This document shows, piece by piece, positions 26,999-32,716 of a stretch of 64,000 nt of DNA. The stretch is from the NCBI RefSeq assembly GCF_024502345.1, contig NZ_JALDNN010000001.1. The stretch is one strand, 5' to 3'. The DNA comes from Escherichia coli. Its GTDB lineage: Bacteria > Pseudomonadota > Gammaproteobacteria > Enterobacterales > Enterobacteriaceae. The first letter of the stretch is position 1. Each line of letters opens with the position of its first letter. A program made the position numbers and the translations under genes. The notes below the pieces were generated by a model. That model saw only the letters and a program-made list of their open reading frames with translations. It had not been told where the DNA came from and made no database searches.

Positions 26999-27478
26999 AT
27001 GATGCTCGCGTTAGGTATGTTTGTTTTTATGCGCCAGACGCTGCCACACCAGGCCATGCAGCGTGAATCAGATTATCGCTGGCCGTCAAATTCCCGTATC
27101 GGTAAACGGGATGCCTTTCAGTTTCTCGGTGTGGGTGAGGAAAACATTACGCTTGCCGGTGTGCTTTATCCCGAACTGACAGGCGGAAAGCTGACGATGA
27201 CCACGCTCAGGATGATGGCAGAGGAAGGTCGGGCGTGGCCGTTGCTGGATGGCACCGGCATGATTTACGGCATGTATGTCATCAGCAGGGTGAGTGAAAC
27301 AGGGAGTATTTTCTTTGCAGACGGCACACCCCGGAAAATTGATTTTACGCTGTCGCTCACCCGCGTTGATGAATCACTGGCCGCGCTTTATGGCGATATC
27401 GGTAAACAGGCGGAATCGCTCATCGGTAAGGCTGGCAGTATGGCGACCAGATTCACGGGTATGACGGGGGCGGGATAA
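26999..27478 (+). CDS. U: P2 gpU tail protein (159 aa)
   Basis: 159 aa, size and position. Confidence 0.9.
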   Translation: MMLALGMFVFMRQTLPHQAMQRESDYRWPSNSRIGKRDAFQFLGVGEENITLAGVLYPELTGGKLTMTTLRMMAEEGRAWPLLDGTGMIYGMYVISRVSETGSIFFADGTPRKIDFTLSLTRVDESLAALYGDIGKQAESLIGKAGSMATRFTGMTGAG

Positions 27479-29213: not shown

Positions 29214-30575
29214 TCACTTACCGTGTGGGTTACGCGTGGTTTCCCCGGAGAAATTACGCATCAGCAGCGCGTAATTTAGCTCAAGATCCTGCGGCACCGG
29301 GAGCCACACAGTATAACCATCGCCTGGTGCTACCGGCATAGCTTCGCCTTTGGCGTTTTCCATGTGCTCAAGGGTAAAGTTAATGTTGCCTTGCGGCGTC
29401 ATCAGCTCAAGGCTGTCGCCAACGGAGAATTTATTTTTCACTGCTACCGCCGCGAGGTCCCCCTTGCGCTCACCGGTAAACTCACCAACAAACTGCTGGC
29501 GGTCAGAAACCGAATAACCGTATTCGTAGTTCTGATAATCGTCGTGAGTATGACGACGCAGGAAACCTTCGGTATAGCCACGATGCGCCAGACCTTCCAG
29601 AGTTTCCAGCAGGCTGGTATCGAACGGTTTGCCCGCAGCGGCATCATCGATAGCTTTACGATAAACCTGTGCGGTGCGTGCGCAATAGTAGAAAGATTTA
29701 GTACGGCCTTCGATCTTCAGCGAATGCACGCCCATTTTGGTCAGGCGCTCAACGTGGGCGATGGCACGCAGATCTTTCGAGTTCATAATGTAAGTGCCGT
29801 GTTCGTCTTCAAACGCGGTCATATACTCGCCCGGACGCTGGGCCTCTTCGATCATAAACACTTTGTCGGTTGGCGCGCCAATACCAAGCGTCGGCTCAAC
29901 GTTTTGCACCGGAATCGGCTCGTACTTGTGTACGATGTTGCCGACGTCATCTTCTTTACCTTCCTGTACGTTGTACTCCCAGCGGCAGGCATTGGTGCAG
30001 GTTCCCTGGTTCGGGTCGCGTTTGTTAATGTAGCCCGAGAGCAGGCAGCGGCCGGAGTAGGCCATGCACAGTGCGCCGTGAACGAAGATCTCGATCTCCA
30101 TATCCGGCACCTGATTGCGGATCTCTTCAATCTCTTCCAGCGACAGCTCGCGAGAGAGGATCACGCGGGTCAGGCCCATTTGCTGCCAGAATTTCACCGT
30201 CGCCCAGTTTACGGCGTTAGCCTGCACCGAGAGGTGGATCGGCATTTCAGGGAAGTGCTCACGCACCAGCATAATCAGCCCTGGATCGGACATAATCAGC
30301 GCATCCGGCCCCATTTCCACCACCGGTTTCAGGTCACGGATAAAGGTTTTCAGCTTGGCGTTGTGCGGGGCAATGTTGACCACGACATAAAACTTTTTCC
30401 CCAGCGCGTGGGCTTCATTGATGCCGAGCTGAAGATTTTCGTGGTTGAATTCGTTGTTGCGCACACGCAGGGAGTAACGCGGCTGGCCCGCATAAACAGC
30501 ATCTGCGCCATAAGCGAAAGCGTAACGCATATTTTTCAGCGTTCCCGCCGGGGAAAGGAGTTCCGGTTTAAACAT
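29214..30575 (-). CDS. yegQ: U32-family peptidase-like protein YegQ (453 aa)
   Basis: 453 aa; MFKPELLSPAGTLKNMRYAFAYGADAVYAG N-terminus typical of U32 family. Confidence 0.9.
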   Translation of the reverse strand: MFKPELLSPAGTLKNMRYAFAYGADAVYAGQPRYSLRVRNNEFNHENLQLGINEAHALGKKFYVVVNIAPHNAKLKTFIRDLKPVVEMGPDALIMSDPGLIMLVREHFPEMPIHLSVQANAVNWATVKFWQQMGLTRVILSRELSLEEIEEIRNQVPDMEIEIFVHGALCMAYSGRCLLSGYINKRDPNQGTCTNACRWEYNVQEGKEDDVGNIVHKYEPIPVQNVEPTLGIGAPTDKVFMIEEAQRPGEYMTAFEDEHGTYIMNSKDLRAIAHVERLTKMGVHSLKIEGRTKSFYYCARTAQVYRKAIDDAAAGKPFDTSLLETLEGLAHRGYTEGFLRRHTHDDYQNYEYGYSVSDRQQFVGEFTGERKGDLAAVAVKNKFSVGDSLELMTPQGNINFTLEHMENAKGEAMPVAPGDGYTVWLPVPQDLELNYALLMRNFSGETTRNPHGK

Positions 30576-30677
30576 AATTCTCTCGTTCTGATGACAGGTC
30601 AGATCCGCTTCACCTGATGAAGCGGTTAGGGGAGTGCCCCCACTTTAAGGGCGGGCATTGTAGCGCAATCGGCGGGT

Positions 30678-30974
30678 TTAGCTCCAGTGTAAATGTCTGG
30701 TGGCGTCCTGGTTTTGGTTAAGGATACGAATGACGATAATTTCCCCTGGTGATTGCAGGAAATAAATTACGTGGCGTTCAAAAGGAAGAACAAAAATACC
30801 TTCGCCTAATTCAGGTCTGGGCGTACCTATATTATTGTTACTCAGAATCTGGAGAACGTCTGAAAGATGTTCCACATATCTGTCGGCTTGTGGTTCGCCG
30901 AAATGGTGATAACTGTAATACCAGATGCCTTCTAAATCCTCATTGGCTTTTGGCATGAGTTTAATAATACGCAC
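30678..30974 (-). CDS. ParE/RelE-family type II toxin (98 aa)
   Basis: About 100 aa, directly downstream of and 1 nt separated from a small RHH antitoxin-like gene; ParE-like sequence character. Confidence 0.6.
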   Translation of the reverse strand: MRIIKLMPKANEDLEGIWYYSYHHFGEPQADRYVEHLSDVLQILSNNNIGTPRPELGEGIFVLPFERHVIYFLQSPGEIIVIRILNQNQDATRHLHWS

Positions 30975-30975
30975 A

Positions 30976-31227
30976 TTATTTCCTTATCCCTGCTTTCACC
31001 TTCCGTAAAAACGCGTCCTTTTCCCACGGCTGAGCTTCACCACTACTCAACCCTTCTGCAAGCATGCCACGTAACGCTTGCAGGCGAGACTCTGCTTGCT
31101 TTTCTCGAAGTAAGCGCAGTGACTCACGGATCACTTCGCTTTGGGTGCGATAGTCGCCGGATTCAATTAAGGACTCGATAAATTCACGCAACTCATCGCC
31201 GAGATCAACCGTCATCGTTCTGGCCAT
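30976..31227 (-). CDS. ParD-like ribbon-helix-helix antitoxin (83 aa)
   Basis: 83 aa, N-terminal RHH-like segment, acidic C-terminal half; precedes the toxin. Confidence 0.6.
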   Translation of the reverse strand: MARTMTVDLGDELREFIESLIESGDYRTQSEVIRESLRLLREKQAESRLQALRGMLAEGLSSGEAQPWEKDAFLRKVKAGIRK

Positions 31228-31470
31228 GTTTATGCTCTCCTGTAAGTAAAAATCTTACATCAGTGTATGTCATAAACCGGATAGCGTCACGAAAAGTATT
31301 AGAAGATATTTTGGCAGATGAACATGTTCAGGAGGATAAGCATGGAGATGTTAAACAAAGAAAGCACAATGAGTATTCATCAGTGTCCACTATTTTAATG
31401 GCGCAGGTAAATAATTAAGCGTTATTTGGAAATAAAGCCGGACGCCAACAACCCACGCCCGGCATCGTAA

Positions 31471-31803
31471 TTACGTATTGTCTTTTACCGTCTGACTTGT
31501 GCCATTGGCTTTAACGGAGGCAATTCCGGTTTCACGAGATTGCGCGGTGGCGTACATCTGGCTGGAGCCGATAATTTGATGATTGGCGGCTTTCAGATTG
31601 AAATAGAATTTGCCGTTACTTGCCGTTTTTTTCTCATAGCGTTCTTCTTGCGGGCTGTTGCTACGCACCGACGCGATGCCCTTTTCCGCAGAGGCTTTTG
31701 AGGTATACAGCTCGCTGGTGAGGATAGTCTCACCATTGCCCGCTTTTAGCACAAACCGGAACTGATTATCACTGCTCTTACTGAGTTCAAACCAACCAGC
31801 CAT
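31471..31803 (-). CDS. yegP: UPF0339/DUF1508 protein YegP (110 aa)
   Basis: Start at MAGWFELSKSSDNQFRFVLKAGNGE; two tandem DUF1508-like halves. Confidence 0.85.
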   Translation of the reverse strand: MAGWFELSKSSDNQFRFVLKAGNGETILTSELYTSKASAEKGIASVRSNSPQEERYEKKTASNGKFYFNLKAANHQIIGSSQMYATAQSRETGIASVKANGTSQTVKDNT

Positions 31804-31993
31804 AATGACTCCTTGATTGAAATTGCTTATCGAAAACAGCATCTAAAGGTGCTGTTTACCGATTAAAGTATGAGCGATTTTCTGATGCCTGCCAGGGCGG
31901 AGAGATAATGTCAGTTTGCTGACCATGCGTGGGATAATGTTGCCGGATCTGGTCTGAACGCCATCTCCGGCTAACAAAGTAATGTCGCTAAAA

Positions 31994-32716
31994 CTAAACG
32001 ATGCGGCAGGCGTCGGCTTCCCAGCGGTAACCAACGCCGTAAACGGCGCGGATAAATGACTGTTCGGCGTCGAGAGATTCCAGCTTGCGGCGCAGGTTTT
32101 TAATGTGGCTGTCGATGGTGCGGTCGGTTACTACGCGGTAGTCGTCATAAAGATGATTGAGCAATTGCTCGCGGGAGAACACTTTTCCTGGTTCATGAGA
32201 GAGCGTTTTCAGCAGACGAAATTCCGCAGGCGTCAGGTCAAGCATTTTACCGCGCCATGAAGCCTGAAAACGACCTTCGTCGATAATCAACGGGCTTTCA
32301 GCATCCTGTTGCTGCAACTCGCGCTGCGGTTTGCAACGGCGCAAAATGGTTTTGACGCGCGCTACCACTTCCCGTGGGCTGTACGGCTTACAGATATAAT
32401 CATCTGCGCCAATCTCCAGTCCGAGCAGGCGGTCGATCTCTTCGATTTTTGCCGTGACCATCACGATAGGAATGTCAGAAAAACGACGAATTTCCCGGCA
32501 CAGCGTCAAGCCATCGGTACCAGGGAGCATCAGATCCAACAGGATCAGATCCGGTGGTGTCTGGCGCACATACGGCAGTACCTGATCGCCGTGGCTGATA
32601 AGCGTCGGCGCATAGCTCGCAGCACGCAGATAATCAATGAGCAACTGCCCCAGCTTCGGTTCATCTTCCACGATCAAAATACGCGGTGTGTTTTCGTCGA
32701 TTGGTAACTCGGTCAT
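31994..32716 (-). CDS. baeR: Envelope stress response regulator BaeR (240 aa)
   Basis: OmpR-family receiver plus winged helix; 240 aa; downstream of baeS. Confidence 0.95.

What the first reader, a model, noticed from the sequence alone, without database searches (positions are those of the whole stretch)
31342..31398. 18-codon ORF with strong Shine-Dalgarno in the intergenic region between the TA pair and yegP
CAGGAGGA is followed 5 nt later by ATG and the peptide MEMLNKESTMSIHQCPLF. It is on the strand opposite to all neighbouring genes. It could be an unannotated small protein or a chance occurrence.
Basis: seen in the sequence. Interest (0 to 1): 0.25.

Follow-up and report, generated by a model that had tools for sequence, protein, structure and literature searches.

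The report
Chance mini-ORF beside a toxin-antitoxin cassette
The 18-codon reading frame with a strong ribosome-binding motif is really in the sequence, but it is most likely an accidental, non-functional ORF in AT-rich spacer DNA upstream of a strain-variable parDE toxin-antitoxin cassette, so it is ordinary.

Summary
It is no more than chance gives. Simulated 64-kb sequences yield about 1.6 such SD+ATG ORFs of at least 18 codons, and the window has 3. The ORF lies in a 33% GC spacer inside a ~770-bp parDE cassette that K-12 and O157:H7 Sakai lack. Of ~1,846 complete E. coli genomes with the segment, only ~100 have the 18-codon form. In ~1,744 genomes a 1-nt deletion and a T>G change cut the first-ATG frame to MGW-stop. 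A 16-codon frame from the internal ATG stays open, but it differs by 5 non-synonymous and 1 synonymous changes (pN/pS about 1.1), whereas parE and parD next door are under purifying selection. The SD is weakened, displaced or separated by IS1 in several alleles. About 300 Nissle-type genomes have lost the 5' two-thirds. Plasmid parDE homologs share only the operator and -10 box, not the ORF. No + strand promoter, Rfam family, stable RNA fold, annotation or literature record supports it. Verdict: a fortuitous ORF, low interest. Translation itself remains untested.

The parts
31342..31398 (+). The reported 18-codon ORF (MEMLNKESTMSIHQCPLF plus TAA). This form is present only in the minority 'window' haplotype (~100 of ~1,846 carrier genomes).
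   Evidence: for the sequence; for the allele counts.
31330..31335 (+). AGGAGG Shine-Dalgarno-like hexamer, 6 nt before the ATG. It is AGGAAG in three sampled alleles and AGGAGA in the IS1-carrying strain. A 9-nt deletion in strain GF4-3 brings it to 2 nt from the remaining ATG.
31348..31398 (+). 16-codon sub-frame from the internal ATG (Met3). This is the only part that is open in all alleles without an IS insertion (MLNKESTMSIHQCPLF versus MVNKESTTSARQCPLF). In the common allele it lies 11 nt from the SD.
   Evidence: pN 0.128 against pS 0.113.
31382..31403 (.). Right copy of an imperfect ~23-bp direct repeat that flanks the cassette (the left copy is at 30633-30653). It supplies the last 6 codons and the stop of the small ORF. 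Similarity to the Nissle-type locus resumes inside it (~31388).
   Evidence: 19/23 identical, with 1 of 1000 shuffles scoring as well in the common allele and 56 of 1000 in the window allele.
30667..31436 (.). Extent of the parDE cassette relative to the K-12 and Sakai empty site. The segment holding the ORF (31296-31436) is 33% GC, against 52% for the whole window.
30976..31227 (-). ParD antitoxin, 83 aa, starting MARTMTV.
   Evidence: Pfam PF03693, 67.8 bits, protein residues 1-78 on profile positions 1-76. Plasmid homologs start at the same residues.
30678..30974 (-). ParE toxin, 98 aa.
   Evidence: Pfam PF05016, 51.3 bits. PGAP annotation as RelE/ParE family toxin.
31241..31259 (.). Palindrome TGTAAG-N7-CTTACA, the inferred ParD operator. 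It is the only upstream element conserved between the chromosomal cassette and the plasmid homologs.
   Evidence: Alignment; coordinates; extended arms found (I2).
31262..31290 (-). Predicted parDE promoter: -35 GTGACG (31290-31285), 17-nt spacer, -10 TACACT (31267-31262). The -10 aligns with TATAAT in the Klebsiella plasmid homolog and TATAGT in the Pantoea one.
   Evidence: This is a prediction only.
31428..31463 (-). yegP intrinsic terminator (a GC-rich hairpin followed by TTTATTTCC). It is shared with genomes that lack the cassette.
31471..31803 (-). yegP (110 aa, as annotated by PGAP).

Best explanation
The ORF is most likely a fortuitous, non-functional open frame. It sits in AT-rich spacer DNA between the yegP terminator and the autoregulated promoter-operator of a strain-variable chromosomal parDE toxin-antitoxin cassette. 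Its 5' part is cassette-specific DNA. Its last six codons and stop come from a short sequence that also occurs at the left edge of the cassette and that borders a different insertion in Nissle-type strains, so the frame looks like a junction chimera. The functional elements nearby are on the other strand: the ParD operator palindrome, the parDE promoter and the yegP terminator. What is shown: the sequence, the allele states, the substitution pattern, the absence from plasmid homologs, and the cassette boundaries. What is inferred: that the ORF is neither transcribed nor translated to any functional effect, and that the repeat marks a recombination junction.
For: 1. The motif occurs at chance frequency: 1.6 expected per 64 kb against 3 observed.
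2. About 1,744 of ~1,846 carrier genomes have the common haplotype, in which the first ATG reads ATG-GGA-TGG-TAA.
3. Between the two haplotypes, the 16 shared codons differ by 5 non-synonymous and 1 synonymous change (pN 0.128, pS 0.113). Between the same two haplotypes, parE has 0 non-synonymous and 2 synonymous changes, and parD has 1 and 3.
4. The SD and its spacing vary: AGGAAG, AGGAGA, a 9-nt deletion, and an 11-nt spacing in the common allele.
5. One strain has IS1 inserted inside the ORF. About 297 Nissle-type genomes retain only the last codons.
6. Plasmid parDE homologs at ~70% identity share the operator and -10 box, but nothing beyond ~40 nt upstream of the parD ATG.
7. No + strand promoter scores above 7/12.
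8. No PGAP feature lies under the segment in any row listed across. The 26-aa form is absent from a collection of 15 billion proteins.
9. Exact scans of 100,044 species representatives found no match to the ORF core or to the operator.
10. There is no gene downstream on the + strand for which it could act as a leader.
Against: The SD hexamer is a perfect AGGAGG at ideal spacing in the window allele. A 16-codon frame with the same stop codon and the conserved ends NKEST and QCPLF is open in every sampled allele that lacks an IS insertion. No indel falls within those 48 nt, although four or five indel events lie in the flanking ~170 nt. That gives about 1 expected and 0 observed, which is not significant. 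Only two haplotypes exist in the core, so the selection test rests on six substitutions (Fisher p = 0.08 against the TA genes). Translation was not measured.
Confidence: 0.85

Rival explanations
1. It is a real, lineage-restricted micropeptide gene of 16-18 aa, transcribed divergently from the parDE promoter region. Most strains would translate it from the internal ATG, and the window haplotype from the first ATG.
For: A perfect AGGAGG lies 6 nt before the ATG in the window allele. The frame from Met3 to the stop is open in all 9 distinct alleles sampled that lack an IS insertion. No indel falls inside the 48-nt core.
Against: The substitution pattern is neutral, with pN/pS about 1.1 and only 1 of 6 changes at a third codon position. 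The SD is mutated or displaced in several alleles. No promoter is predicted. The ORF is disrupted by IS1 in one strain and by island replacement in ~297 genomes, and it is absent from K-12, Sakai and about 2,200 other genomes. It has no homolog elsewhere. The peptide is hydrophilic, with no recognisable motif by inspection, and the 26-aa form has no Pfam match.
Confidence: 0.07
2. The segment acts at the RNA level. On a - strand read-through transcript from yegP, the complement of the SD and ATG (CCAUGCUUAUCCUCCUG) would pair with the parD ribosome-binding site (CAGGAGAGCAUAAACAUGG) and block antitoxin translation. Alternatively, the + strand could encode a small RNA.
For: The MFE and centroid folds of the window allele's - strand contain this long-range helix. 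The repeat finder reports an overlapping inverted repeat in the window allele, although in a different register (I1).
Against: The fold energies do not differ from shuffled sequences (z -0.02 for the - strand, -0.41 for the + strand). The helix is not predicted, and no such inverted repeat is detected, in the common allele carried by ~95% of cassette genomes. There are no compensatory changes. The predicted parDE promoter lies downstream of the upstream arm, so the normal TA mRNA would lack it. The yegP terminator precedes the segment. The only Rfam match is 6A RNA at 21 bits, against a gathering score of 41.2, with E = 0.68.
Confidence: 0.03
3. It is a leader peptide or upstream ORF that regulates a downstream gene on the same strand.
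For: The short length and strong SD resemble those of leader peptides (my own knowledge).
Against: Downstream on the + strand there is only the antisense of yegP, baeR and baeS. No co-oriented gene is present, and no attenuator-like terminator follows the ORF on the + strand.
Confidence: 0.01

Closest known systems
Validated E. coli small proteins of 50 aa or fewer, found by ribosome profiling and epitope tagging (my own knowledge of the K-12 small-protein literature)
   Same: A short intergenic ORF with a canonical SD and ATG that automated annotation does not call.
   Different: Validated examples were shown to be translated, and many are conserved across enterobacteria. This ORF is truncated to 3 codons from its first ATG in ~95% of carriers and evolves neutrally. 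It has no predicted promoter. It lies in a cassette absent from K-12, so K-12 data cannot cover it.
Autoregulated promoter-operator regions of parDE type II toxin-antitoxin operons with a ribbon-helix-helix ParD (general knowledge, for example RK2 parDE)
   Same: The neighbouring element fits this pattern. A ParD (PF03693) and ParE (PF05016) pair is preceded by a palindrome (TGTAAG-N7-CTTACA) next to a -10 box, and both elements are conserved in plasmid homologs.
   Different: The small ORF lies ~50 nt upstream of the predicted -35 box, on the opposite strand, in sequence not shared with any plasmid homolog. It is not part of the conserved TA module.
Three-component ParE systems such as paaR2-paaA2-parE2 of E. 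coli O157:H7 (my own knowledge)
   Same: An extra small ORF is associated with a ParE-family TA pair.
   Different: In those systems the third gene is a co-transcribed regulator of normal size. Here the ORF is divergent, 16-18 codons long, has no DNA-binding motif and is not conserved.
Spurious or 'proto-gene' intergenic ORFs created by chance at recombination junctions
   Same: AT-rich DNA, lineage-restricted, neutral substitution pattern, and assembled from two sequence sources (cassette DNA plus a flanking repeat copy).
   Different: None of substance. This is the category the ORF is filed under.

Membership tests
Bona fide small-protein gene | The reading frame from the annotated start is conserved across strains that carry the locus. 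| tested here: not met
   The first-ATG frame is MGW-stop in the common haplotype (~1,744 of ~1,846 carriers). Only a 16-codon sub-frame stays open.
Bona fide small-protein gene | Purifying selection, seen as an excess of synonymous over non-synonymous change. | tested here: not met
   5 non-synonymous and 1 synonymous change, pN/pS about 1.1. Adjacent parE has 0 and 2, and parD has 1 and 3. Numbers are small (Fisher p = 0.08).
Bona fide small-protein gene | The ribosome-binding site and its spacing are conserved. | tested here: not met
   Variants seen are AGGAAG, AGGAGA and a 9-nt deletion. Spacing is 6 nt in the window allele, 11 nt in the common allele and 2 nt in GF4-3.
Bona fide small-protein gene | Its own promoter or transcript. 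| tested here: inconclusive
   No + strand sigma-70 match scores above 7/12 upstream of the ORF. Consensus scans cannot exclude a weak or alternative-sigma promoter.
Bona fide small-protein gene | Ribosome occupancy or a detectable protein product. | not testable with these tools
   K-12 and O157:H7 Sakai lack the locus. No paper contains the peptide sequences.
Leader peptide or upstream ORF | A co-oriented downstream gene or an attenuator. | tested here: not met
   Downstream on the + strand there is only the antisense of yegP, baeR and baeS, and no + strand terminator follows the ORF.
Type I toxin peptide | A hydrophobic, membrane-spanning peptide. | tested here: not met
   The peptide MEMLNKESTMSIHQCPLF is rich in K, E, N, S, T, H and Q, and has no hydrophobic stretch (read directly from the sequence).
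Rfam small RNA (6A RNA, RF02925) | A score at or above the family's gathering threshold. | tested here: not met
   21 bits against 41.2, with E = 0.68.
parDE type II toxin-antitoxin module (the context, not the ORF) | An adjacent ParD antitoxin and ParE toxin, with an upstream operator palindrome. | tested here: met
   PF03693 at 67.8 bits and PF05016 at 51.3 bits. The palindrome and -10 box are conserved with plasmid homologs. The small ORF lies outside the conserved module.

The most novel reading that the evidence does not exclude
A very young, E. coli-restricted micropeptide gene of 16-18 aa arose de novo at the junction between the parDE cassette and a flanking repeat. It would be translated from a strong SD in the window haplotype and from the internal ATG elsewhere, and it has not yet come under detectable purifying selection.
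Probability: 0.05. Interest if true: 0.3.

Novelty: not a real feature. Interest (0 to 1): 0.05.

Why it matters
If this ORF were real, it would be a small example of de novo micropeptide birth next to a toxin-antitoxin module. On the evidence, it instead shows that a perfect SD plus ATG plus an open frame of under 20 codons arises by chance about once or twice per 64 kb, and that a quick allele comparison can dismiss it. The useful by-products concern the surroundings. The yegP-yegQ spacer is a three-state variable locus. The ParD 'frameshifted pseudogene' calls in RefSeq for this haplotype are probably artefacts of an over-extended start codon.

Tried and rejected
- Rfam scan of 30500-32100 at permissive thresholds found only a sub-threshold 6A RNA match. 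Rejected as chance.
- RNA folding of both strands gave z-scores of -0.41 and -0.02, so there is no structure signal.
- The anti-SD pairing between the complement of the ORF's RBS and the parD RBS appears only in the window allele and is absent from the common allele. Rejected.
- Two exact-pattern scans of one genome for each of 100,044 species, using the operator with its flank and the ORF core, both returned 0 hits. This supports a restricted distribution, but exact matching cannot detect diverged copies. I did not run the costly protein-based locus scan, because the within-species evidence was already decisive.
- Exact look-up in the protein collection: the 26-aa form is absent. The overlapping 51-aa GTG ORF in another frame appears as 'hypothetical protein' in a few GenBank draft-genome entries, but it truncates to 12 codons in the common allele. 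Rejected as a gene.
- Literature searches for the locus (yegP, yegQ, ParE) and for the peptide strings found nothing relevant.
- A check of whether O157:H7 Sakai could supply Ribo-seq evidence showed that it has the empty site.
- A PADLOC scan of the Nissle replacement island and of ParD and ParE gave no hits.

Full report
**The observation**

The sequence is exactly as described. CAGGAGGA lies at 31329-31336, followed by the 5-nt spacer TAAGC. The ATG is at 31342, and 18 codons encode MEMLNKESTMSIHQCPLF, with a TAA ending at 31398, all on the + strand. The frame also has an upstream in-frame ATG at 31318, giving a 26-aa version.

All neighbouring genes are on the - strand:
- yegQ/trhP, 29214-30575
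- a ParE-family toxin, 30678-30974
- a ParD-family antitoxin, 30976-31227
- yegP, 31471-31803
- baeR and baeS

Pfam confirms ParE_toxin (51.3 bits) and ParD_antitoxin (67.8 bits).

**Is it more than chance?**

No. In 200 first-order Markov simulations of the window, AGGAGG followed 3-10 nt later by an ATG that opens at least 18 codons occurs 1.6 +/- 1.2 times per 64 kb on both strands. The real window has three such cases. The segment carrying the ORF (31296-31436) is 33% GC, against 52% for the window.

**Where it sits**

K-12 derivatives and O157:H7 Sakai have only a 146-147-nt spacer between yegP and yegQ. Alignment places the extra DNA in the window at about 30667-31436. The yegP terminator hairpin (31437-31463, with its T-tract at 31428-31436 on the - strand) is shared by more than 4,000 genomes. 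The ORF therefore belongs to a ~770-bp parDE cassette that is present in about 1,846 of 5,426 complete E. coli genomes.

**Frame conservation within E. coli**

The cassette has two haplotype groups. The window type is found in 93 genomes at 99% identity or more, about 100 in all, including O55:H7. The common type is found in about 1,744 genomes.

In the common type, a 1-nt deletion after ATGG plus a T>G change turn the first-ATG frame into ATG-GGA-TGG-TAA, which is three codons. The frame from the internal ATG (Met3 of the reported peptide) stays open as MVNKESTTSARQCPLF, but that ATG lies 11 nt from the SD.

Other sampled alleles alter the RBS or the ORF:
- Three alleles (L004, L005, L014) have AGGAAG. 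About 190 genomes fall in that sub-allele class.
- Strain GF4-3 has a 9-nt deletion that removes the first ATG and leaves 2 nt between the SD and the remaining ATG.
- Strain QEC11-421 has AGGAGA and an IS1 inserted after codon 8.
- One allele (L011) is a recombinant of the two haplotypes.

**Selection**

Across the 16 codons shared by the two haplotypes there are 5 non-synonymous changes and 1 synonymous change (L>V, M>T, I>A with two changes, H>R, and Cys synonymous). That gives pN 0.128 and pS 0.113. Between the same two haplotypes, parE has 0 non-synonymous and 2 synonymous differences, and parD has 1 and 3.

The ORF's divergence (~11-13%) is two to four times the synonymous divergence of the adjacent genes, and it exceeds that of the promoter-operator stretch. 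The numbers are small (Fisher p = 0.08). Even so, nothing points to constraint on a protein. The lack of an indel in the 48-nt core is not significant, with about one expected from the indel density of the flanks.

**Beyond the chromosomal locus**

Plasmid parDE homologs in Pantoea, Klebsiella, Citrobacter and E. coli are about 70% identical across the two genes. The similarity stops about 40 nt upstream of the parD ATG. The only shared upstream elements are the palindrome TGTAAG-N7-CTTAC (window 31241-31259) and the adjacent -10 box. That box is TACACT in the window (31267-31262, - strand), TATAAT in Klebsiella and TATAGT in Pantoea. No small divergent ORF occupies the equivalent position.

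Exact-pattern scans of one genome from each of 100,044 species found no copy of the operator with its flank, and no copy of the ORF core.

**A third locus state and the junction**

About 297 further genomes, including Nissle 1917, match only the right-hand ~60 nt of the common-allele segment. In Nissle, a ~5.2-kb island lies between a 19-nt remnant of the parE 3' end and the sequence CAYTATTTTAATG, which is the last codons of the small ORF. The island encodes PcfJ-domain, DUF1266 and DUF4034 proteins and a hypothetical protein. The 5' two-thirds of the ORF are therefore dispensable in a whole lineage.

The ORF's last six codons and stop coincide with the right copy of an imperfect 23-bp direct repeat. 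The left copy lies at 30633-30653, between yegQ and parE. The repeat is 19/23 identical in the common allele, where 1 of 1000 shuffles scores as well. In the window allele 56 of 1000 do. I infer that the ORF is a chimera across a recombination junction. That inference is weaker than the rest of the argument.

**Expression signals and RNA-level rivals**

- No + strand sigma-70-like promoter scores above 7/12 upstream of the ORF.
- The best - strand promoter is GTGACG-17-TACACT, immediately upstream of the operator. The parDE mRNA would therefore start downstream of the ORF segment.
- Rfam gives only a sub-threshold match to 6A RNA (21 bits against a gathering score of 41.2, E = 0.68).
- Neither strand folds better than its shuffles (z -0.41 and -0.02).
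- A long-range helix between the complement of the ORF's RBS and the parD RBS appears in the window allele only. It is absent from the common allele, so I rejected it.
- No co-oriented gene lies downstream, so a leader-peptide role has no target.

**Annotation and literature**

- No PGAP feature lies under the segment in any listed genome.
- The 26-aa form is absent from a collection of 15 billion proteins. An overlapping 51-aa GTG ORF in another frame is listed as 'hypothetical protein' in a few GenBank draft-genome entries, but it collapses to 12 codons in the common allele.
- No paper in the searchable library contains the peptides or discusses this cassette.
- To my knowledge, K-12 and O157:H7 Sakai are the ribosome-profiled backgrounds, and both lack the locus. 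Existing data of that kind therefore cannot test translation.

**Verdict**

The ORF is real as sequence but most probably a chance frame in non-coding, fast-evolving, horizontally variable spacer DNA (confidence about 0.85). The functional elements here are the yegP terminator and the parDE promoter-operator, both on the opposite strand. The residual possibility is a very young micropeptide gene (about 5-7%). Initiation-arrest Ribo-seq or epitope tagging in a cassette-bearing strain would settle it.

Noticed in passing
window 30976-31273 (- strand): RefSeq/PGAP annotates ParD as a 98-aa protein in the common haplotype, and as a 'frameshifted' pseudogene in the window haplotype (strain 104, O55:H7 USDA5905, Z1323HEC0300). 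The 83-aa ORF starting MARTMTV is intact, and in the window allele it has a better SD (GGAGAG). Plasmid homologs and the Pfam profile both begin at that residue, and the operator and -10 box lie inside the supposed 15-codon extension. The pseudogene call therefore looks like a start-codon artefact.
   Followed up: partly
window 30667-31436; L003, L017, L018: The yegP-yegQ (trhP) spacer is a variable locus with three states in complete E. coli genomes. It is empty in K-12 and O157:H7 Sakai. About 1,846 genomes carry the parDE cassette. About 297 Nissle 1917-type genomes carry a ~5.2-kb island that replaced most of the cassette and left a 19-nt parE remnant. O55:H7 carries the cassette, but O157:H7 Sakai does not.
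   Followed up: partly
L017:1430-6145 (E. coli Nissle 1917): The replacement island encodes four co-oriented proteins: PcfJ-domain, DUF1266, DUF4034 and a 201-aa hypothetical protein. None matches a PADLOC defence model. Its function is unknown and was not pursued.
   Followed up: partly
window 30633-30653 and 31382-31403: An imperfect ~23-bp direct repeat flanks the parDE cassette: AGTGCCCCCACTTTAAGGGCG(G) on the left and AGTG(C/T)CCACTATTTTAATGGCG(G) on the right. In the common allele 1 of 1000 shuffles scores as well, and in the window allele 56 of 1000 do. The right copy is also the breakpoint of the Nissle-type replacement. It may be a recombination hot spot.
   Followed up: partly
window 31320-31329: A perfect 10-bp palindrome, GAACATGTTC, lies immediately upstream of the AGGAGG. 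It is intact in all sampled alleles except one (GAACTTGTTC in strain 2017-01-4CC). No binding protein is suggested.
   Followed up: no
window 31228-31436 compared with L002, L011: The spacer upstream of parD differs by ~11-13% between the two haplotype groups. That is several times the synonymous divergence of the adjacent parD and parE genes (3-5%). A recombinant allele exists (L011: window-type 5' part, common-type 3' part). Both observations suggest mosaic recombination at this locus.
   Followed up: partly
window 31263-31418 (+): A 51-aa GTG-start ORF overlaps the finding in another frame. It is deposited as 'hypothetical protein' in a few GenBank draft-genome entries (for example KEM66949.1, EGX05235.1). 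It is cut to 12 codons in the common haplotype, so it is probably spurious.
   Followed up: yes
window ~2693 (- strand) and 26999 (+ strand): These are the only other AGGAGG+ATG combinations in the window. One is a 37-codon ORF on the - strand starting at 2693, and the other is a 159-codon ORF on the + strand starting at 26999. Neither was examined.
   Followed up: no
L015 (E. coli QEC11-421), equivalent to window ~31372: An IS1B element is inserted inside the small ORF, between the parDE promoter region and yegP.
   Followed up: partly
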